Below are positions 56,640 to 64,000 of a stretch of DNA of 64,000 bases, in pieces. Position 1 is the stretch's first letter, and each line of letters begins with the position of its first letter. The stretch is from Escherichia phage T4_ev151. Location: the sequence record LR597660; one strand, written 5' to 3'. Position numbers and translations under genes: made by a program. The notes beneath the pieces are model-generated. The model ran no database searches and was not told where the DNA came from. It was given only the letters and a program-made list of their open reading frames with translations.

Positions 56640-57025
56640 CTATAACACAACACGAGGGACTTGTAAACTACATTTTGAACTTTTTAGTACGCGTAATAGG
56701 CATGCGTCGATTTTATACTGTTTCATTGTTTGAAGAGCAGTATCAAAAACAGCATTAATGACACCAATTGGATTTCCACCCAAGTTTTTAAGCTTAACTA
56801 ATGATAGTTTCTCATTAACACCTATCATTACGATATGCATCATTTTGTCGCCTGGTTTAACGTTTTATCTGTATCACCGCCAGAGGTGTATGTACAAAAT
56901 CTAAATCCAGGAAGCACGCTTTCTTCGCCGGCTTGAATAGCAAAAATTTGTGGTATTTTATGCTTAGGATTTAAGTTAACAACCGGCGCCGAAGCGCCGT
57001 CAAATAATTCTGTAATAAGTTCCAT
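56640..57025 (-). pseudogene. decayed duplicate of the alt N-terminal region (two frameshifted fragments, first retains the capsid-targeting sequence)
   Basis: Fragment 1 (56840..57025) MELITELFDGASAPVVNLNPKHKIPQIFAIQAGEESVLPGFRFCTYTSGGDTDK aligns to Alt residues 1-55; fragment 2 (56640..56843) MMHIVMIGVNEK...KQYKIDACLLRVLKS aligns to the following Alt residues; a 1-nt deletion relative to alt at the junction. Confidence 0.65.
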
Positions 57026-57028
57026 GAT

Positions 57029-59116
57029 TTATCCTTGAACGAACTTGTAAGGCATATTTGTAATATCTATGCAAGACGCAATAATTCCAAGAGATGATTC
57101 TACTTTCTGTTTAACATTTGACGAAACAAATGATGCAAAGTCAACTCTATTTTCTATATAGCCTGTCATTGTAACCAATTCACCAGTTTCCATTAAACGG
57201 TCTCCGTCATAGATTACCGATTCGGTGAGTTCTTCTGTGGTCATAACTTCAGCTTGAATGAGTTTTGTATTATTAGATGTTGTTCCGTCATTATTAGAAG
57301 CATCAGTTATTTTATTAACTTTGACCATCAATCCACGCGGTAGAATAACTTCAGCTTCAGTTGCTATTCCGAGATTTCCTGGATATACAACATTAACTTT
57401 ATGTGCGCCGTCAATAGCCCATCCTATTTGAACTTTAACGTATTCAGGATTTTCTTTATACGCTCTTATTTCGTTTGGATTAATAGTTATTCCTTCTTCA
57501 TTTTTATCAACTGTTAATTCATTGCGAGCTTCTGGTTCTAAAAGACCAATACCAGCATGTGTAATTCCAAAACGTCCAAAAATGATAGGAGTTAAAGAAG
57601 TAGATACAAAATTTCTGAAATAGAATACTTTATTTTTAACTAGTGCTTCGTATATAGGAGCAGTCATACTTTGAGCACGATAAACTGTAATGCCTTCTGG
57701 TATACGATCACCATTTTCAAAAGCATAATCTAAATTAGTTATAGCAGCTTCAATTTCTTTTTCACTCATTACTTCATAACGTTCTGGATCATAACGACCC
57801 AAAAGAAGATTATTGATGTCAGTATACCCTGAACCACAATACTCTCTAATGCCGCGCTTTTGTGATGGAGTATATTTAGAACCATCACGGGCAATAGTAA
57901 TATCAATCATTGGACCTGCACCAATTCCAGAAAAACTATAAATCATTCTTTTGAGGAATTTAGTTTTTGCTGCGTTCCAGGAATTTTTAGTCATTTCTTC
58001 CCAGACTTCATCTGGCTGCCCTTTACGAGTTTTATTATGTTTATCAAGCCAATTATCTTTATATTCTTCAAAGAGTTGATTAACAGCTGCTGCGTATTTC
58101 TCTAAACATTTTATTGAAGTAGTTGGTTCATTTTTAATTGCATTAAAAATTACTTCTTTAATTTTTTCTGAAACTTCACCGACTTGACTCATTGGAAAGA
58201 ATTTATAATCATAGTGAAGTTCATCTGCCGTTCCTTCAGCAATAATTTTTGCTGCCTTTGTTTTAGAAGCTAATGAATTAATTCCAATTTTCATTTCTTC
58301 TGCTTCGGGAATTAAAGGTGCAGTAGCTGGTTTATTAAAATTAGCTGCTGTAGATTCATACTTCTGGAATAATTCACTTTCAAATCTAGAAGATTCCAAT
58401 GATTGACTTTGCGCAATTGCTCTACGGGAAATTTTAACTTTAACGATTACAGCTTGGTCAGAACGTTTATCATTTTCTTGTGCAATAGATGCTGCAATTG
58501 CCTCATTTTTAGTTACTTGAGCTCCAGTATCTTTATTGATGTAAACATCGCCGACTTTCGATTCAACTTTAGTAAAGAGCTCGGTACTAATTTCCGGAAC
58601 TCCTGGAATGTCTTCTAGTGATACATTTTTGCGATGTATAAGAATATATGCATACTTTTTATCATAATCCCAGAGTTCCTTAAGAAGGACGTATCTGCCA
58701 CCTGAACGGCTACGGATAAGTCTATCAGCAATAACTTGAATTTGTCGAGCTTGACCAGCGGTTTTAGACTTAAGAATACGAAGCATACAAGCATCAATTT
58801 TATACTGACGCATTGTTTGCATTGCAACAGTAAAAACTGAATTGATATAATTAATTGGGCTTGGACCAAGACCTTTTAATTTAGCAATTGAACCTTTAGC
58901 AGTTAATGTAAAAGGAACAATGTGCATCATTTTATCGCCCATCTTTAAATCGCGATTAGTATCACCTCCAGATGTATAGGTACATAAACGAAAGCCTGGT
59001 TGTTCAATTGCATCATCAACATGAACTGAAAAAATTTGCGGTATTTTCTTCTTTGGATTTAAGTTTGTAATCGGAAGAGTAGTATCTTCGTCAAATAATT
59101 CTGTAATGAGTTCCAT
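57029..59116 (-). CDS. alt: Alt, capsid-packaged ADP-ribosyltransferase
   Basis: 695 aa; N-terminal capsid-targeting sequence MELITELFDE; synteny between gene 54 and ligase. Confidence 0.9.
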   Translation of the reverse strand: MELITELFDEDTTLPITNLNPKKKIPQIFSVHVDDAIEQPGFRLCTYTSGGDTNRDLKMGDKMMHIVPFTLTAKGSIAKLKGLGPSPINYINSVFTVAMQTMRQYKIDACMLRILKSKTAGQARQIQVIADRLIRSRSGGRYVLLKELWDYDKKYAYILIHRKNVSLEDIPGVPEISTELFTKVESKVGDVYINKDTGAQVTKNEAIAASIAQENDKRSDQAVIVKVKISRRAIAQSQSLESSRFESELFQKYESTAANFNKPATAPLIPEAEEMKIGINSLASKTKAAKIIAEGTADELHYDYKFFPMSQVGEVSEKIKEVIFNAIKNEPTTSIKCLEKYAAAVNQLFEEYKDNWLDKHNKTRKGQPDEVWEEMTKNSWNAAKTKFLKRMIYSFSGIGAGPMIDITIARDGSKYTPSQKRGIREYCGSGYTDINNLLLGRYDPERYEVMSEKEIEAAITNLDYAFENGDRIPEGITVYRAQSMTAPIYEALVKNKVFYFRNFVSTSLTPIIFGRFGITHAGIGLLEPEARNELTVDKNEEGITINPNEIRAYKENPEYVKVQIGWAIDGAHKVNVVYPGNLGIATEAEVILPRGLMVKVNKITDASNNDGTTSNNTKLIQAEVMTTEELTESVIYDGDRLMETGELVTMTGYIENRVDFASFVSSNVKQKVESSLGIIASCIDITNMPYKFVQG

Positions 59117-59152: not shown

Positions 59153-59170
59153 AAAGGCCCGAAGGCCTTT
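59153..59170 (-). terminator. hairpin GGCC-UUCG-GGCC (extended AAAGGCC...GGCCUUU) on the minus-strand transcript
   Basis: GC stem with UUCG tetraloop and flanking A/U runs, after the small ORF and before the alt promoter. Confidence 0.5.
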
Positions 59171-59357
59171 AATAATCTATTGGTAAGAGAGTACGATATA
59201 TTTCAAACTTTGGACCTTTTTCATAAGCATCAAAAGTTTCTGTGAATTTATTATAAGCATATGCATCTATAAATTCAATCATGATTTGTGATACAGAAGT
59301 AGAAACATCTCCACCTTCTTTTTGAGCCACGACAATTGTTTCTAAGTAAGCTTTCAT
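59169..59357 (-). CDS. small hypothetical protein between ligase and alt
   Basis: 62-aa ORF whose start overlaps the ligase stop. Confidence 0.45.
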   Translation of the reverse strand: MKAYLETIVVAQKEGGDVSTSVSQIMIEFIDAYAYNKFTETFDAYEKGPKFEIYRTLLPIDY

Positions 59358-60817
59358 AGACCAGTTACCTCATGAAAATCACCAAATACATCTTCGAATG
59401 TATTAGCTTTAGTTTTATCTTCACGTAAACGAATCGCAATCGGAAGAAATAATTTAACGTAATCAGTGCGGCCATCAGATTTTAACCAACCGTTGCATTC
59501 GCACTCTAGAATTTTTCCAATATAATAATTTTGGTTTTCCATAATGCGAGTACGGTCAAGTTCATGTGATTTTACACCGGCTTTATCTTTTAAGCCTGAA
59601 CCAGCATTCACCTTAATTTTTCCACACTCTGACTCAAGAATAAATCCACCTGCTTTAGTAGGGTCTTTACGGTGAGGATAAATTCCTACAATTTTTAAAT
59701 CAACATCAATTACTTCTTTAAATTTATAGAGATTTTTTGAACGAGCATTTTCCCATAATCCATCGATATTTTTGAGAATAATACCTTCAAGACCTTGGTC
59801 AATATACTTTTTATAAATTACCTTAGCTTCATCTAGGTTATTTACTACTTGGTTTTCAATTAAAATTACTTTATCATAACCTGATGTCATTTGTTCTAAT
59901 TTAGAAAAACGGACATCATATTTCAAACGAAATGTAGGAAGACCGTATATTTCTATCAACGGTACATAATCCCAGACCTGAAACTTCATGCATTGTGCTT
60001 CTTTTTCAGAAATTGTTCCCTTTAAAGATTTATTGGCGATGCCATTAGAAGCAGTACGTGATTCAGCTACTTCGGCGAATTCTTTAGCTTTACTATTTTC
60101 AGGATAAGCATCAAAAAGAAAATCTAGGCCTTCTGGCTCCTTTTTAACTTGCTCATGGTATACCAATTCGCCATCAATTAACACACCTTCTGGATGAATC
60201 TGGCGGGCTTCAGCGGTCATTTTGATTAACTCTTCCTTAAGAAGATCTAATCCTAGGTATTCATTACCAGCTCGTGATAAAAGACGAACATCATCTAATT
60301 CATCACCTCTGACTTCAGCAAAGCACCGAGCCCCATCAGCTTTTAACTGGGCAAAGGCTGGAAATTTGATATTCTTATTAATGCCTTTTTCATCATAAGA
60401 ACTTGCAAGCATTTGAGGTTGTTCAGGAATTAAACCTGGCCAAACTTTGTTTGCAATAGATACTGAAGCACCACATTCAAGGTCTCGCATCATCACTCGA
60501 CGCAAAACTTCAACATCATCTTTTTTACCATCGGTGATATATCCAGTTAATTCCTCAATTGCTGCATTTCCAGTCAATTTCCGAGTAGCTAACGTGAATT
60601 CAATAAAATCAAGCATATCGGTAAGAGTCAACATTCCAAAACTCTGGGTAGCAATACCAGGTTTAGGCCATTTCTTGATATAATACTGTAACCCACGAGA
60701 ATAAGTCAGACGATATACTCGTTTAAGCAATTCATTATCTTTATTCTTTTCAAGAATTGCTTGCTTCTGCTTAGTTGAACCAATAGATGCTATTTCGTTC
60801 AGAATTTTAAGAATCAT
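59354..60817 (-). CDS. 30: ATP-dependent DNA ligase gp30
   Basis: 487 aa; N-terminus MILKILNEIASIGSTKQKQAILEKNKDNELLKRVY as T4 DNA ligase from memory; adenylation motif KADGAR. Confidence 0.95.
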   Translation of the reverse strand: MILKILNEIASIGSTKQKQAILEKNKDNELLKRVYRLTYSRGLQYYIKKWPKPGIATQSFGMLTLTDMLDFIEFTLATRKLTGNAAIEELTGYITDGKKDDVEVLRRVMMRDLECGASVSIANKVWPGLIPEQPQMLASSYDEKGINKNIKFPAFAQLKADGARCFAEVRGDELDDVRLLSRAGNEYLGLDLLKEELIKMTAEARQIHPEGVLIDGELVYHEQVKKEPEGLDFLFDAYPENSKAKEFAEVAESRTASNGIANKSLKGTISEKEAQCMKFQVWDYVPLIEIYGLPTFRLKYDVRFSKLEQMTSGYDKVILIENQVVNNLDEAKVIYKKYIDQGLEGIILKNIDGLWENARSKNLYKFKEVIDVDLKIVGIYPHRKDPTKAGGFILESECGKIKVNAGSGLKDKAGVKSHELDRTRIMENQNYYIGKILECECNGWLKSDGRTDYVKLFLPIAIRLREDKTKANTFEDVFGDFHEVTGL

Positions 60818-61083
60818 TGTTCATCCTTTAGAGTTTGGTTTACAGCTCTATTATAAATCAATTCATCATTAAGCTCAGTCAAAGACCTGTGGTACGTTGT
60901 TCTAACTTTATTTCCTTGCATCCAGTGCTTGACGTAAATGAAACCTTGCTCTACACATTTTTTAAAAATTCGTTCGTCTTTTTGAGCTCGGAATTCTGGA
61001 TTGCATCTAAAAAATTGATTTACGTGACCGTAATCACGTGTAGTATTACCTTCATTTTCATAAATAGTGTGAACAACAAACAT
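60814..61083 (-). CDS. 30.1-like hypothetical protein
   Basis: 89-aa ORF overlapping the ligase start (ATGA). Confidence 0.5.
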   Translation of the reverse strand: MFVVHTIYENEGNTTRDYGHVNQFFRCNPEFRAQKDERIFKKCVEQGFIYVKHWMQGNKVRTTYHRSLTELNDELIYNRAVNQTLKDEQ

Positions 61084-61919
61084 TAGAATGCTCCTTGGAA
61101 AATATTATCACCACTAGTAGGTCTATTATACAAATACTCTATGCCACCGGGTTTAATATAATTCCATGTCTGAAACGGATGCGTCTGATATGGATGATAT
61201 GGATTATAAGGATTAAATCCAGGAGTTCTCCAGGTAGTGTTCCAAGGAAAAGAATCGTTTTTAATCATCTTCTCGATTGCATCTTTTATAGCTTTTTCAC
61301 TATCAAAACTTTCTTTATTTTCCTTCGGTGAAAAAAGCTTATTTTCTACATCATTCCATGTATAAACTCGCTGTGCAGTTTTTGGAATACTGTCACGCTC
61401 CCCTCGAGCCATCCAATAAACAGGAACATTTAATATTTCACTCGCGTGATCGCAGTGGTGAGCGAGATCGTCAATATAACAAATTACGTTATATTTTTCT
61501 TTTGCCTTTTTGAACAGCTCTTCTTTTGAAGAATCATGACCACACATCATTACTTCTGAGAAGGCACCAGGAAAAAGAGCATTCAAATTAAATTGACGAT
61601 TCAGCAGAGCGTCAATAGAATCACCCAATGCTGTAACAGCTACAAAATTATAATCTTCTTTTAATTTGTTAATTACACACAGAGCATCTTTATATGGAGA
61701 CAAGTAACGAATAAAATCTGAACGATTGTATTTTTCAATTAACTTGACGCCAAGTTCTTCATCACAATTAAAGAGTTTACCAGGAGAAATAAATTTCTCA
61801 TCTTGGATCATTTTTAAAATATGTTCTAACGGAAGATTATATTTCTGAGCAAAATAAGGAAGACCTGATTGCCAGCTTAAACATACTCCATCAATATCAG
61901 TTAAAATAGTAGGCTTCAT
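61083..61919 (-). CDS. HAD-superfamily hydrolase-like protein (30.2-like) with Pro/Tyr-rich C-terminal tail
   Basis: N-terminal HAD motif I LTDIDGV; later IDDL motif; 278 aa. Confidence 0.6.
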   Translation of the reverse strand: MKPTILTDIDGVCLSWQSGLPYFAQKYNLPLEHILKMIQDEKFISPGKLFNCDEELGVKLIEKYNRSDFIRYLSPYKDALCVINKLKEDYNFVAVTALGDSIDALLNRQFNLNALFPGAFSEVMMCGHDSSKEELFKKAKEKYNVICYIDDLAHHCDHASEILNVPVYWMARGERDSIPKTAQRVYTWNDVENKLFSPKENKESFDSEKAIKDAIEKMIKNDSFPWNTTWRTPGFNPYNPYHPYQTHPFQTWNYIKPGGIEYLYNRPTSGDNIFQGAF

Positions 61920-62374
61920 AGAGAGTCTCTTAATAGGTTTAACACATCAATAAATTCAGCTTCGGTTAGTATTGTATCATCTTTTGTTAGACCACTAGCC
62001 ATGCTGTGCTTCAAAACTTTTCCTTTCGAGGCTAGTAATGCATCACGAAAGCCCTTGTTTTGGATTGCTGCTTCAAAATATGCATTTGTGTATAATTCTT
62101 TCCACGCTGGGGAGTATCTTGAAAACGGAACTCCAAGCCAGAAGAGGGTCCCACGGTCCTGAGCTCTAGCATAAGACCTTCCAGCTTGTTGGGCGGCAAG
62201 CCCGGATAACCCAAATATACGTCTTTGCTGTTCAACATTTTTCACCTTACATCCTTGGAGGAATCCTTCAAGACCTCCAAATTGAATGCCATCCATAACG
62301 AAAGGCCATTGGGCAAAATTACTTAATGCACATGATGGCCATTTAAAATTGCTTCTAATCTCTAACTCAGACAT
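61916..62374 (-). CDS. NADAR (DUF1768/YbiA-like) domain protein (30.3-like)
   Basis: Start trimmed to ATG at 62374, which overlaps the upstream stop (ATGTCTGA); the sequence pattern resembles the NADAR fold by eye. Confidence 0.55.
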   Translation of the reverse strand: MSELEIRSNFKWPSCALSNFAQWPFVMDGIQFGGLEGFLQGCKVKNVEQQRRIFGLSGLAAQQAGRSYARAQDRGTLFWLGVPFSRYSPAWKELYTNAYFEAAIQNKGFRDALLASKGKVLKHSMASGLTKDDTILTEAEFIDVLNLLRDSL

Positions 62375-62573
62375 TTTCAATACTTATAATTTCAACATCA
62401 GCCCAATGACCATAGTTTGGTAGACGAAATTCAACTGGCCAGTCACTGCCTTTTTCTAATATAATAGACTTAACTTGTGGTTCTTCGTGTTCATCAGTAT
62501 ACGGATTTTTATCTGTTACTTTATATGTTACCTTAATGTACTGAATTCCAAAAATCTTATTAATTATATTCAT
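62367..62573 (-). CDS. hypothetical small protein (30.x block)
   Basis: 68-aa ORF, ATGA overlap with the upstream gene. Confidence 0.5.
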   Translation of the reverse strand: MNIINKIFGIQYIKVTYKVTDKNPYTDEHEEPQVKSIILEKGSDWPVEFRLPNYGHWADVEIISIENV

Positions 62574-62767
62574 ACTAATTCCTTTAATCCGTAGATAGGA
62601 GATAATTCATCACCCATACGAAGGTCTTCATTCCCATCTACCCAAGAAACAATATAAGCCTCTTTTACTTGAACATCTCCCAATTTAAATGCGGGTAAAA
62701 CCTTAGAAATTAATCCAGGTATACCAACTCCCTTTAATTCAACAGTTTGGCCTAAAAAGAATTTCAT
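62570..62767 (-). CDS. hypothetical small protein (30.x block)
   Basis: 65-aa ORF, translationally coupled to its neighbours. Confidence 0.5.
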   Translation of the reverse strand: MKFFLGQTVELKGVGIPGLISKVLPAFKLGDVQVKEAYIVSWVDGNEDLRMGDELSPIYGLKELV

Positions 62768-63054
62768 TAAAACCTCATCTGAAAACCATGCGATTTAACA
62801 TTACCGCCATTAATATCAGAACTATTAATTTCACGTGCAATTGAGGGATCAATGTCAATTTCGCCATTAAGTTTAATGATAGACAAAGTATCACGCCCAT
62901 TTACTGTGCGGAACTCTAAAGGGCAGACTGCATTAACATAGTTTTTAATCGATTCACTGGTAGGCTGCAAATGAGCAGGAAGGTCTTTAGGCGCCTTTGA
63001 GAAAACTACTTCACAGAAATTTTTGCGGGTGTCAAAATAAGTAGTCATAAACAT
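62767..63054 (-). CDS. hypothetical protein (30.x block; start trimmed to the ATG at 63054)
   Basis: ATG preceded by GAGGAAAAT SD; the longer track ORF would run through the hairpin at 63072..63085. Confidence 0.5.
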   Translation of the reverse strand: MFMTTYFDTRKNFCEVVFSKAPKDLPAHLQPTSESIKNYVNAVCPLEFRTVNGRDTLSIIKLNGEIDIDPSIAREINSSDINGGNVKSHGFQMRF

Positions 63055-63071
63055 AATATTTTCCTCAGTAA

Positions 63072-63085
63072 GGGGCCGAAGCCCC
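63072..63085 (-). terminator. GC stem-loop GGGGC-UUCG-GCCCC on the minus-strand transcript
   Basis: Third copy of the identical 14-nt element, between the 63095..63460 stop and the next start. Confidence 0.5.
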
Positions 63086-63094
63086 TGTTTTATT

Positions 63095-63460
63095 TTAAAT
63101 ATCAAATTCGTTAAGAACTACATCAAAGATTGCTTCAAGATGCTCAGGTTTAGCTTTGTTACTCAGAATATGACGAATCCAAGTTTTAACCAGAAGCTTA
63201 CGATTGACGCCATTCCAGCAAGGATGAGTCCCTAAATCACGTTGACGAAAATCATCATCCAAAGCGATTTTAAAAGAAGAACCTTCTTTCGTGATTGAAA
63301 CCGTGATGCCATTTTCAAATCGCATATAAACGTAATTAGGAGTCATATACTGTTCAATTTCGCATACTGATCCATTTTGATGTTTCCAAAGGCAGATAGT
63401 ATCAATAGAACCTGCAATACCATTAGAAACATATTTACGTTCAAAGTTGATGTAGTTCAT
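63095..63460 (-). CDS. hypothetical protein (30.x block; start trimmed to ATG at 63460, MNYINFERKY...)
   Basis: ATG preceded by TTGGAGAATAAA SD; the track ORF starts at a TTG. Confidence 0.5.
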   Translation of the reverse strand: MNYINFERKYVSNGIAGSIDTICLWKHQNGSVCEIEQYMTPNYVYMRFENGITVSITKEGSSFKIALDDDFRQRDLGTHPCWNGVNRKLLVKTWIRHILSNKAKPEHLEAIFDVVLNEFDI

Positions 63461-63496
63461 TTTATTCTCCAAGATGTTTAATTGCGGTACAGGTAT

Positions 63497-63527: not shown

Positions 63528-63860
63528 TTATTTTACTACTTTCCAATGTTGCATGTCAAGTTTACCAACTTTTTTCATCTTCTCAATTAAGCGTTCTGCA
63601 CGTTGGCGAGCTGTAACATAATGCCATTCGCCTAATTCATTTTGTTCAATTTTTCCAACGATTACTGTATTCAATTCATAAATCCAACCAGTAAAGAAAT
63701 TATGAACTTGAATTGTAAAGGTGAAATCTGTTCCCATACCTTCTGTTGTTTCTACTTCAATAATATCACCTTCAACTGCCATTAAGAACCACATAGTTTC
63801 ATTATATTTACCATTGAAGCATTTAGTTTTAACTGTAGCGTTCAGATTAATCGTTTTCAT
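63528..63860 (-). CDS. hypothetical protein (30.x block)
   Basis: 110-aa ORF; ATG preceded by AAGGAGAATAAA SD. Confidence 0.5.
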   Translation of the reverse strand: MKTINLNATVKTKCFNGKYNETMWFLMAVEGDIIEVETTEGMGTDFTFTIQVHNFFTGWIYELNTVIVGKIEQNELGEWHYVTARQRAERLIEKMKKVGKLDMQHWKVVK

Positions 63861-63917: not shown

Positions 63918-63946
63918 AACTTTGTGCAATCTTTGGAAAATAAAAA

Positions 63947-63966
63947 AGGACTCCCGAAGGAGTCCT
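63947..63966 (-). terminator. hairpin AGGACUCC-UUCG-GGAGUCCU on the minus-strand transcript
   Basis: 8-bp stem with UUCG tetraloop and flanking A/U runs, upstream of the early promoter. Confidence 0.5.
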
Positions 63967-64000
63967 CAACTTATGCTTTCTGCTTACCAAAACGAGAAGC

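What the first reader, a model, noticed from the sequence alone, without database searches (positions are those of the whole stretch)
61083..62374. HAD-like hydrolase and NADAR-domain protein adjacent to ligase and alt
The 278-aa ORF has a canonical HAD motif I (LTDIDGV). The translationally coupled downstream ORF looks like a NADAR/YbiA-like domain, a family that as I recall has been shown to reverse ADP-ribosylation of guanine in DNA by DarT-type toxins. Sitting beside DNA ligase and the Alt ADP-ribosyltransferase in one early operon, the pair could be a counter-defence or DNA-repair module.
Basis: partly seen in the sequence, partly recalled or inferred. Interest (0 to 1): 0.6.

Follow-up and report, generated by a model that had tools for sequence, protein, structure and literature searches.

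The report
T4 genes 30.2 and adfN
These are phage T4's genes 30.3 and 30.2: the first is AdfN, an enzyme already shown in 2024-25 to strip a bacterial defence toxin's ADP-ribose marks off phage DNA, and the second is a still-uncharacterised phosphatase whose conserved neighbour is the DNA ligase gene rather than AdfN.

Summary
The window is a Tequatrovirus (T4-like phage). The finding covers two minus-strand genes.

**Gene 30.3 (61916-62374, 152 aa).** It is 98% identical to T4 gp30.3, also called AdfN. It matches Pfam Phage_30_3 at E=4e-70, and its model's only significant PDB matches are the three NADAR structures. E36, K43, H123 and the C-terminal helix are all intact. T4 AdfN has already been shown, in vitro and in infection, to remove DarT1's guanine ADP-ribosylation from DNA and so defeat DarTG1 (Toxins 2024; Nat Commun 2025). 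This half is correct but already known.

**Are they a pair?** In 77 related loci, 30.2 lies just upstream of DNA ligase in 71. The NADAR gene lies within 6 kb in only 37 and elsewhere in the genome in the rest. An obligate HAD–NADAR module is therefore not supported.

**What remains open.** AdfN is reported to need an unidentified T-even factor, and gp30.2 is an untested candidate.

The parts
61916..62374 (-). Gene 30.3 = adfN. A 152-aa NADAR-fold DNA ADP-ribosylglycohydrolase. Catalytic codons: E36 at 62267-62269, K43 at 62246-62248, subfamily-specific H123 at 62006-62008. TGA stop at 61916-61918.
   Evidence: PF08010 E=4e-70. 149/152 identical to T4 gp30.3. AF2 pLDDT 94.5. The top three Foldseek PDB hits are the three NADAR structures: YbiA 2b3w, PnNADAR 8bau and GlNADAR 8bat. 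E36, K43 and H123 are invariant in 41 homologues. Function was shown for T4 AdfN in PMC11825919 and PMC11125620.
61320..61919 (-). Gene 30.2, residues 1-200: HAD phosphatase core plus helical C1 cap (about aa 16-72). Motif I D8/D10, motif II T96, motif III K132, motif IV D150/D151.
61083..61319 (-). Gene 30.2, residues 201-278 plus the stop codon. This is a variable C-terminal tail rich in Pro, Asn and aromatic residues. It is mostly disordered, with one helix (aa 207-220) and a short conserved motif G-G/T-G-I-E-Y-L...P-T.
   Evidence: pLDDT 41-66 beyond residue 200, apart from the 207-220 helix. The tail is absent from many homologues of about 200 aa, and the motif is visible in the alignment.
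61916..61919 (-). ATGA overlap: the stop of 30.3 and the start of 30.2, consistent with translational coupling.
   Evidence: Sequence. The same 4-nt overlap is present in 15 of 37 related loci that have both genes.
60814..61083 (-). Gene 30.1 (DUF3045, 89 aa). Its start overlaps the 30.2 stop (TAATG) and its stop overlaps the ligase start (ATGA).
   Evidence: PF11243 E=3e-64. Sequence. The gene is present or absent between the HAD and the ligase in different lineages.
59354..60817 (-). Gene 30, ATP-dependent DNA ligase. This is the conserved downstream neighbour of 30.2.
   Evidence: PF01068 E=7e-33. It lies downstream of the HAD gene in 71 of 77 loci.
57029..59116 (-). alt, the capsid-packaged ADP-ribosyltransferase (context only).
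   Evidence: PF03496 E=1e-35. T4 annotation.

Best explanation
These are two adjacent but functionally separable T4 genes.

**(1) 30.3 = adfN.** It encodes an NADAR-fold glycohydrolase. It cleaves the N-glycosidic bond between ADP-ribose and guanine in single-stranded phage DNA that the host DarT1 toxin has modified. That restores a replicable template and neutralises the DarTG1 defence. This was shown experimentally for the 98%-identical T4 protein and is inferred here by orthology and intact catalytic residues.

**(2) 30.2.** It encodes a Mg2+-dependent HAD phosphomonoesterase. Asp8 would be the nucleophile forming an aspartyl-phosphate intermediate, and Asp10 the general acid/base. Thr96, Lys132, Asp150 and Asp151 would complete the site. 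The helical C1 cap closes over the active site, which points to a small substrate. Its nearest family is the NT5C 5'(3')-deoxyribonucleotidases. The most likely activity is therefore dephosphorylation of a (deoxy)nucleoside monophosphate or a similar small phosphoester, within the nucleotide-metabolism and replication gene block (cd … 30.2-30.1-ligase). The disordered C-terminal tail may tether it to a partner.

**The 4-nt overlap.** It couples translation of the two genes in Tequatroviruses. That coupling is a lineage-specific arrangement, not evidence of a shared pathway.

**Confidence by part.** AdfN identity and mechanism about 0.95. HAD phosphatase fold and chemistry about 0.9. Nucleotide-like substrate about 0.5. 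Functional independence from AdfN about 0.7.
For: **AdfN.**
- 98% identity to T4 gp30.3 and PF08010 at E=4e-70.
- The profile hits E. coli YbiA across the catalytic motif.
- The AF2 model (pLDDT 94.5) matches only the three NADAR structures in the PDB significantly.
- E36, K43 and H123 are invariant.
- The protein is full length with the C-terminal helix (aa 138-151) that RB69 lacks.
- PMC11825919 reports that T4 ΔadfN becomes DarTG1-sensitive, that E36A and K43A impair rescue, and that the purified protein removes ADP-ribose from DarT1-modified DNA.
- PMC11125620 reports that gp30.3 hydrolyses guanine-ADPr but not thymidine-ADPr in vitro.

**gp30.2.**
- D8, D10 and K132 are invariant, and T96, D150 and D151 are conserved in at least 90% of 45 homologues down to 33% identity.
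- The model has pLDDT above 90 for residues 1-200, with a helical insertion right after motif I.
- The only near-significant sequence-profile PDB hit is cytosolic deoxyribonucleotidase 2jao at E=0.019. In that alignment W16-Q-S-G-L aligns with F-E-S-G-L.
- 9 of 45 close relatives and 23 of 57 wider relatives hit Pfam NT5C. P0340 scores above the gathering cut-off, 37.3 against 24.8 bits. hhalign between the close and wider sets gives 100% probability.

**Context.**
- The ligase lies downstream in 71 of 77 loci and within 400 nt in 63. Several lineages lacking 30.1 have an overlapping stop and start.
- The NADAR gene is absent from the 6-kb flank in 40 of 77 loci but present elsewhere on the same contigs.
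Against: **On the HAD assignment.**
- The window protein itself has no Pfam, NCBIfam or PDB sequence hit at significant E-values.
- The NT5C assignment rests on transitive and structural evidence.
- No enzymology exists for gp30.2.

**Against full independence of the two genes.**
- The ATGA coupling is kept in Tequatrovirus-, Mosigvirus- and some Acinetobacter-phage-like loci.
- Three distant contigs show the same set of genes reshuffled: L156 has NT5C-like HAD > NADAR > ligase, L098 has NADAR overlapping ligase, and L108 has HAD, two ORFs, then NADAR.
- AdfN is reported to need an unknown T-even factor for full activity (PMC11825919).
Confidence: 0.72

Rival explanations
1. gp30.2 and AdfN form one counter-defence module. 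Either gp30.2 is the unidentified T-even factor that AdfN needs for full activity in vivo (by stabilising, localising or activating it), or it removes a phosphorylated by-product of de-ADP-ribosylation so that the DNA can be sealed by the adjacent ligase.
For: - A 4-nt ATGA overlap implies coupled, roughly stoichiometric expression. It is conserved in 15 loci and the genes are directly adjacent in 19.
- Both families have near-identical genus distributions in the phage collection, 1439 against 1510 records.
- NADAR, HAD and ligase recur in reshuffled order in distant contigs L156, L098 and L108.
- PMC11825919 reports that AdfN(T4) fails as an antitoxin in uninfected E. coli and rescues T5 and Bas25 only weakly, yet fully rescues RB69. 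RB69 has an intact 30.2.
- The disordered tail with a conserved short motif could be a docking element.
Against: - In 40 of 77 HAD loci there is no NADAR gene within 6 kb. In those genomes it lies about 58 kb away, while the HAD stays next to the ligase.
- 59 of 80 NADAR loci have no HAD within 6 kb.
- There are no natural fusions among 359 family members.
- Genome-level co-occurrence is uninformative, because both genes are near-universal in Straboviridae.
- Purified AdfN alone removes ADP-ribose in vitro (PMC11825919, PMC11125620).
- About 150 other T-even-specific genes fit the 'present in RB69, absent from T5' criterion equally well.
- NADAR hydrolysis releases free ADP-ribose and an intact base, so no phosphatase step is chemically required.
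Confidence: 0.12
2. gp30.2 is a DNA end-healing 3'-phosphatase, like the HAD domain of polynucleotide kinase-phosphatase. It would prepare nicks for the ligase encoded just downstream.
For: - There is very tight synteny with DNA ligase across T4-like phages, including overlapping stop and start codons in several lineages.
- It uses HAD DxD chemistry, like the T4 Pnkp phosphatase domain (general knowledge).
- One distant homologue, P0270, is fused to a domain containing a GDLD motif that resembles a Pol-beta-type nucleotidyltransferase. This is my reading of the sequence; Pfam gave no hit.
Against: - The model shows a 4-5-helix C1 cap inserted after motif I (aa 16-72, pLDDT above 93). Such caps enclose the active site. 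DNA/RNA-end HAD phosphatases are capless (general knowledge of HAD cap classes).
- The best structural and sequence relatives are small-molecule enzymes, especially mononucleotidases.
- T4 already encodes Pnkp for this role (general knowledge).
Confidence: 0.08
3. The NADAR/HAD pair acts on riboflavin-pathway or other small ribosyl-phosphate metabolites. The precedent is cellular YbiA (an N-glycosidase on riboflavin intermediates) together with the HAD phosphatases YigB and YbjI. On this view they do not act on DNA.
For: - The profile and fold match to E. coli YbiA is the strongest PDB hit for gp30.3.
- One metagenome annotation of a gp30.2 homologue reads 'FMN phosphatase YigB (HAD superfamily)' (P0037).
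- Iyer et al. 2022 (PMC9503650) argued that phage NADARs may prefer soluble ADPr derivatives.
Against: - Direct experiments show that T4 AdfN works on ADP-ribosylated DNA and that this explains the DarTG1 phenotype (PMC11825919, PMC11125620).
- gp30.3 has His123 where the YbiA family has Glu (PMC11125620).
- TIGR02464 scores 12.3 bits against a 73.7-bit cut-off.
- The gp30.2 family links to NT5C, not to the YigB-type families.
Confidence: 0.03

Closest known systems
T4 AdfN (gp30.3), anti-DarT factor NADAR (Johannesman et al., Nat Commun 2025, PMC11825919; in vitro activity in Toxins 2024, PMC11125620)
   Same: 149 of 152 residues are identical, with the same length, the same E36/K43/H123, the same C-terminal helix and the same genomic position between 30.4 and 30.2. 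It is an orthologue.
   Different: Only three conservative substitutions: K11R, L113Q and M125I relative to T4.
DarG1 / DarT1-associated NADAR antitoxins (BC4488 family; Geobacter lovleyi NADAR 8bat; Schuller et al., Mol Cell 2023, PMC11543638)
   Same: Same fold, the same catalytic Glu and Lys, and the same reaction (guanine-ADPr hydrolysis on DNA).
   Different: - There is no adjacent darT gene.
- There is no N-terminal extension.
- His replaces Asp in the last strand.
- It cannot replace DarG1 as an antitoxin in uninfected cells (PMC11825919, PMC11125620).
E. coli YbiA (2b3w), the riboflavin-intermediate N-glycosidase branch of NADAR
   Same: It is the best structural and profile match: Foldseek E=3.6e-5 with TM 0.67, and hmmsearch E=0.0013.
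   Different: His123 replaces the family's Glu. The TIGR02464 score is far below its cut-off. The biological role is different.
NT5C family 5'(3')-deoxyribonucleotidases (cdN/mdN, PF06941; 2jao, 2i7d, 1mh9; bacterial 3bwv)
   Same: - DxD / T / K / DD motifs and a helical C1 cap.
- An aromatic residue eight positions after the nucleophile, with W16 aligning to Phe of cdN.
- Wider relatives of gp30.2 score on the NT5C model.
   Different: - About 15-21% identity.
- The window protein does not reach the Pfam threshold.
- It has an extra C-terminal tail of about 80 aa.
- It has family-specific invariant residues: S18, Y64, S67, R108, N111, F116, P117 and R172.
- The substrate is untested.
T4 gp30.2 (NP_049815), annotated 'hypothetical protein'; 'putative phosphatase' in some Tequatrovirus records
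   Same: 272 of 278 residues are identical, in the same position. Phage vB_EcoM_Shinka annotates the pair as 'putative phosphatase | NADAR domain containing protein'.
   Different: Nothing material. It is the same uncharacterised gene.

Membership tests
NADAR superfamily, phage gp30.3 subfamily (PF08010) | Match to the family model above the curated cut-off | tested here: met
   234 bits against a 36-bit cut-off, E=4e-70, covering 138/138 model positions.
NADAR superfamily, phage gp30.3 subfamily (PF08010) | NADAR alpha+beta fold | tested here: met
   AF2 pLDDT 94.5. The top three PDB hits are YbiA, PnNADAR and GlNADAR, each with probability of at least 0.99. Nothing else scores below E=1.
NADAR superfamily, phage gp30.3 subfamily (PF08010) | Catalytic Glu and Lys (E36 and K43 in T4 numbering) and the subfamily-specific His in the last strand | tested here: met
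   E36, K43 and H123 are present and invariant in 41 homologues. The residues are defined in PMC11825919 and PMC11125620.
NADAR superfamily, phage gp30.3 subfamily (PF08010) | Full-length C-terminal helix (its loss inactivates the RB69 allele) | tested here: met
   152 aa with helix 138-151. RB69 30.3 is annotated at 137 aa.
NADAR superfamily, phage gp30.3 subfamily (PF08010) | Guanine-ADP-ribose glycohydrolase activity on DNA | not testable with these tools
   Shown for the 98%-identical T4 protein (PMC11825919, PMC11125620).
DarG1 type IV antitoxin (DarT1-associated NADAR) | Encoded next to a darT1 toxin gene | tested here: not met
   The neighbours are 30.4 and 30.2. There is no ART next to it other than alt, which is 3 kb away and belongs to a different family.
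DarG1 type IV antitoxin (DarT1-associated NADAR) | N-terminal extension and Asp in the last strand | tested here: not met
   152 aa with no extension, and His123. The features are as described in PMC11825919 and PMC11125620.
YbiA family (riboflavin-intermediate N-glycosidase, TIGR02464) | Match above the curated cut-off, and Glu in the last strand | tested here: not met
   12.3 bits against a 73.7-bit cut-off. His123 is present instead of Glu.
HAD superfamily phosphatases | Motif I DxDx(T/V), motif II T/S, motif III K, motif IV DD | tested here: met
   D8-I-D10-G-V, T96, K132 and D150-D151, all invariant or conserved in at least 90% of 45 homologues.
HAD superfamily phosphatases | Rossmannoid HAD core fold | tested here: met
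HAD superfamily phosphatases | Match to a Pfam HAD model above its cut-off | tested here: not met
   No hit for the window protein. Relatives reach only sub-threshold scores on PF00702 and PF13419.
NT5C 5'(3')-deoxyribonucleotidase family (PF06941) | Match to PF06941 above its cut-off | tested here: inconclusive
   The window protein gives no hit. 9 of 45 close relatives hit at E as low as 1e-4. 23 of 57 wider relatives hit at E of 1e-3 or better, the best at 4e-10. P0340 scores 37.3 against 24.8 bits. The close and wider sets are clearly homologous (hhalign 100%).
NT5C 5'(3')-deoxyribonucleotidase family (PF06941) | C1 helical cap with a base-stacking aromatic residue after motif I | tested here: met
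   The cap helices span aa 16-72. Invariant W16 aligns with Phe of cdN in the F/W-x-S-G-L segment. The role of that Phe is recalled from the mdN/cdN structures and was not tested here.
NT5C 5'(3')-deoxyribonucleotidase family (PF06941) | dNMP phosphatase activity | not testable with these tools
   No biochemical data were found for gp30.2.
PNKP-type polynucleotide 3'-phosphatase (capless HAD) | No cap domain, giving an open active site for DNA or RNA ends | tested here: not met
   The model has a confident helical cap between motifs I and II. The closest structures are capped small-molecule enzymes.

The most novel reading that the evidence does not exclude
gp30.2 is the missing T-even-specific partner of AdfN. 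On this reading an NT5C-like HAD protein, translationally coupled to the NADAR gene and always placed beside DNA ligase, potentiates or completes removal of DarT1 damage. That would make 30.3-30.2-(30.1)-30 a de-ADP-ribosylation and repair cassette. It would also explain why AdfN alone fails in uninfected cells and in T5 or Bas25 infections.
Probability: 0.1. Interest if true: 0.6.

Novelty: already known. Interest (0 to 1): 0.22.

Why it matters
The eye-catching part of the finding, a phage NADAR that undoes DarT DNA ADP-ribosylation, was a correct prediction from raw sequence. It has since been demonstrated for this very gene (AdfN), so it adds nothing new.

The residual value lies in gene 30.2. 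It is one of roughly 100 T4 genes without a known function. Here it is placed with good confidence as a catalytically intact, capped, NT5C-like HAD phosphatase. It is conserved across Straboviridae and physically tied to the DNA ligase gene.

That gives a concrete and cheap set of experiments:
- a substrate panel with a D8N control;
- a non-polar deletion tested on DarTG1 hosts;
- co-expression with AdfN.

These would either assign a new nucleotide-pool enzyme to T4 or identify the unknown factor that AdfN needs.

Tried and rejected
- **Single-sequence searches of gp30.2.** Pfam, NCBIfam and PDB gave only noise: TPK_catalytic at E=0.19, RanGAP at E=1.3, thi_PPkinase at E=0.008 (below its cut-off). 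I did not use these.
- **Promoter and terminator scan of 56.5-64 kb.** It found 37 promoter-like sites against 30.5±5.2 expected, so it was not informative for operon structure.
- **Genome-level co-occurrence of the two families.** Counts of 1439 against 1510 phage records looked like a link. Both genes are near-universal in T4-like phages, so I rejected it as evidence of coupling.
- **Search for HAD–NADAR fusion proteins.** None were found among 359 fetched family members. The longer HAD homologues (P0219, P0257, P0270, P0328, P0082) have extra regions with no Pfam match.
- **Encoding contigs of distant HAD relatives.** P0340 and P0226 gave contigs of only 1.3 and 2.5 kb, too short for context.
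- **Literature searches.** Searches for 'gp30.2', for 30.1/30.2/30.3 plus 'bacteriophage T4', and for deoxyribonucleotidase plus T4-like phage found no functional study of gp30.2.
- **Alternative start codon for 30.3.** I considered the TTG start at 62380 (154 aa). I rejected it in favour of the ATG at 62374, because that matches the T4 annotation and the published E36/K43 numbering.
Full report
**What is there.**
The window is a Tequatrovirus (T4-like phage). The 1.8 kb around the finding is 97-98% identical to phages U115, AR1 and many others, and 673 phage records match. All genes in this stretch are on the minus strand. In the direction of transcription the order is as follows:

| Gene | Coordinates | Note |
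|---|---|---|
| 30.8 | 63528-63860 | |
| 30.7 | 63095-63472 | |
| 30.6 | 62767-63105 | |
| 30.5 | 62570-62767 | |
| 30.4 | 62367-62573 | |
| 30.3 | 61916-62374 | NADAR |
| 30.2 | 61083-61919 | HAD |
| 30.1 | 60814-61083 | DUF3045 |
| 30 | 59354-60817 | DNA ligase |
| alt.1 | 59169-59357 | |
| alt | 57029-59116 | |
| alt.-1 | 56840-57025 | |

The stop of 30.3 and the start of 30.2 share ATGA at 61916-61919. The 30.2 stop overlaps the 30.1 start (TAATG), and the 30.1 stop overlaps the ligase start (ATGA).

One correction is needed. The NADAR gene is upstream of the HAD gene in the direction of transcription, not downstream.

**Gene 30.3 is AdfN.**
The 152-aa product is 149/152 identical to T4 gp30.3. 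It matches Pfam Phage_30_3 at E=4e-70.

A profile of 41 homologues hits E. coli YbiA across the catalytic segment at E=0.0013. An AlphaFold model with pLDDT 94.5 has as its only significant PDB matches the three solved NADAR structures: YbiA 2b3w, Phytophthora NADAR 8bau and Geobacter NADAR 8bat.

E36, K43 and H123 are invariant in the family. The C-terminal helix that the defective RB69 allele lacks is present.

The literature held in the library settles the function:
- Toxins 2024 (PMC11125620) showed that T4 gp30.3 hydrolyses guanine-linked but not thymidine-linked ADP-ribose on DNA in vitro.
- Johannesman et al. 2025 (PMC11825919) named the protein AdfN and mapped DarTG1 resistance to it through T2/T4 × RB69 chimeras.
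- The same paper showed that T4 ΔadfN becomes DarTG1-sensitive, that E36A and K43A impair rescue, and that the purified protein removes ADP-ribose from DarT1-modified DNA.

**It works like DarG1 but is not a member of that family.**
There is no adjacent darT gene and no N-terminal extension. His replaces Asp in the last strand. AdfN also cannot replace DarG1 in uninfected cells. It is not a YbiA-family riboflavin enzyme either: His replaces Glu, and TIGR02464 scores 12 bits against a 74-bit cut-off.

**Gene 30.2 is a real HAD phosphatase.**
The product is 272/278 identical to T4 gp30.2. No curated model recognises it directly.

Homologues are abundant on contigs of about 170 kb. In an alignment of 45 of them down to 33% identity, D8, D10 and K132 are invariant. 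T96, D150 and D151 are conserved in at least 90%. These are the four HAD motifs, with the DxD that marks phosphotransferases rather than dehalogenases.

The AlphaFold model is confident over residues 1-200 (pLDDT above 90). It shows a helical cap (about aa 16-72) inserted right after motif I, which is a C1 cap. The last 80 residues or so are disordered apart from one helix.

**Which HAD subfamily.**
Several C1-capped subfamilies score alike on structure, but three lines point to the NT5C 5'(3')-deoxyribonucleotidases.
- **Profile against the PDB.** The only near-significant hit is mouse cytosolic deoxyribonucleotidase 2jao at E=0.019. Invariant W16-Q-S-G-L aligns with F-E-S-G-L.
- **Structural coverage.** The nucleotidases give the best TM-scores and coverage. 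3bwv aligns 165 of 168 residues at 21% identity, and 2jao, 2i7d and 4yih give TMt 0.63-0.68.
- **Pfam through relatives.** 9 of 45 close relatives and 23 of 57 wider relatives hit Pfam NT5C. One, P0340, scores above the gathering cut-off. The wider set is unambiguously homologous to the close set (hhalign 100%).

The substrate remains inferred. I put about 0.5 on a (deoxy)nucleoside monophosphate.

The capped active site argues against a DNA-end phosphatase of the PNKP type. I found no paper describing a function for gp30.2. Some GenBank records already label it 'putative phosphatase'.

**Are the two genes a module?**
I fetched 77 viral loci that encode a gp30.2 relative, with 6-kb flanks, and located the NADAR and ligase genes with profiles.

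| Neighbour of the HAD gene | Loci (of 77) |
|---|---|
| Ligase downstream | 71 |
| Ligase within 400 nt | 63 |
| NADAR upstream within 6 kb | 37 |
| NADAR directly adjacent | 19 |
| NADAR with the ATGA overlap | 15 |

The ligase is either directly abutting the HAD gene, often with overlapping stop and start, or separated only by 30.1.

The reciprocal set of 80 NADAR loci has an HAD gene within 6 kb in only 21. Contigs present in both sets show the two genes about 58 kb apart. An example is IMGVR_UViG_2974666281, with the HAD near 128 kb and the NADAR near 71 kb.

At genome level both families occur in about 1450-1500 phage records with the same genus distribution. That only says both are near-universal in Straboviridae. 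No HAD–NADAR fusion exists among 359 fetched relatives.

The stable unit is therefore HAD–ligase. The HAD–NADAR coupling is a lineage-specific arrangement seen in Tequatrovirus-, Mosigvirus- and some Acinetobacter-phage-like loci.

**What keeps the module idea alive.**
Three things keep it at about 10%.
- The translational coupling itself.
- Three distant contigs in which the same gene set recurs in a different order. L156 has an NT5C-like HAD, then the NADAR, then a ligase. L098 has the NADAR overlapping a ligase. L108 has the HAD, two ORFs, then the NADAR.
- The published observation that AdfN needs an unidentified T-even factor. It fails as an antitoxin in uninfected cells and barely rescues T5 and Bas25. 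Yet it fully rescues RB69, and RB69 has an intact 30.2.

Many other T-even genes fit that last criterion equally well.

**The link to alt.**
Alt is a capsid-packaged ADP-ribosyltransferase (annotation), and by general T4 knowledge it is made late. 'One early operon' containing alt is therefore doubtful. Iyer et al. 2022 (PMC9503650) had already noted the co-location of NADAR genes with ART genes in T4-like phages.

**Verdict.**
- **Observation:** confirmed.
- **Interpretation:** partly supported. Both folds and the NADAR counter-defence role are correct. The role of the HAD in that defence is unsupported.
- **Novelty:** the headline claim is already known. Gene 30.2 is an uncharacterised new member of a known enzyme kind.
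- **Interest:** low to modest. It comes mainly from the testable possibility that gp30.2 is AdfN's missing partner, or else a new T4 nucleotide-pool enzyme tied to the ligase.

Noticed in passing
P0114, P0115, P0116, P0174, P0107, P0117 (relatives of window 61916-62374): Several natural Tequatroviruses carry deletion chimeras that remove AdfN's catalytic N-terminus but keep its 3' end in frame. Examples are gp30.7(1-77)::gp30.3(48-138), gp30.8(1-40)::gp30.3(87-138) in phage vB_EcoM-RPN226, and DUF2883(1-40)::gp30.3(63-138) in phage vB_Eco_NR1. There are also truncated ORFs of 91-109 aa. Loss of this anti-DarTG1 gene, as in RB69, therefore seems common in nature. Ascertainment is biased towards in-frame events.
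   Followed up: partly
window 61086-61319 (gp30.2 residues 201-278): gp30.2 has a disordered C-terminal tail rich in Pro, Asn, Tyr and Trp. Many homologues of about 200 aa lack it. Within the tail, a short motif G-(T/G)-G-I-E-Y-(L/W)-x3-P-T is conserved among otherwise divergent tails. This may be a docking motif, but the partner is unknown. The presence of the tail does not correlate with NADAR adjacency.
   Followed up: partly
L156 5506-7847; L098 5908-7756; L108 4736-6456: Distant phage contigs carry the same gene set in other orders. L156 has a short canonical NT5C-like HAD (162 aa), then a NADAR, then an ATP-dependent ligase of 360 aa. L098 has a NADAR whose stop overlaps a gp30-like ligase. 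L108 has the HAD, two ORFs, then a NADAR.
   Followed up: partly
window 56840-57025 (minus strand): A 61-aa ORF duplicates the N-terminus of Alt (MELITELFD...). This is T4's alt.-1, annotated in T4 as an old duplication of the start of alt with a stop codon introduced. Some related phages have a full second alt paralogue at this position (for example L002, L005 and L025).
   Followed up: partly
window 62032-62238 (minus strand): A 68-aa ORF lies in another frame inside 30.3. It corresponds to T4's annotated 30.3' ('internal translation in a different reading frame'). I did not assess whether it is expressed.
   Followed up: no
P0015; P0076; P0257; P0270: There are several oddities among gp30.2 relatives.
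- P0015 (302 aa) also carries the 30.1 domain PF11243, so it looks like a 30.2–30.1 fusion.
- P0076, a 216-aa HAD, is labelled 'DNA ligase' in Acinetobacter phage AB1I1M-1. This is probably a mis-annotation from its neighbour.
- P0257 has a C-terminal region with a ParB-like 'GRHR' motif.
- P0270 has an N-terminal region with a 'GDLD' motif that resembles a nucleotidyltransferase.

Both of the last two are my reading of the sequences. Pfam found nothing there.
   Followed up: partly
window 63530-63559 and 63946-63967 (minus strand): The best sigma-70-like site in the region (TTGACA-18-TAAAAT, 11/12) overlaps the last codons of 30.8, just upstream of 30.7. A strong terminator-like hairpin (GAGGACTCC-TTCG-GGAGTCCTT followed by a T-run) lies upstream of 30.8. 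Together these suggest transcript boundaries about 1.2-1.6 kb upstream of adfN. The promoter count for the region as a whole was not above chance.
   Followed up: no
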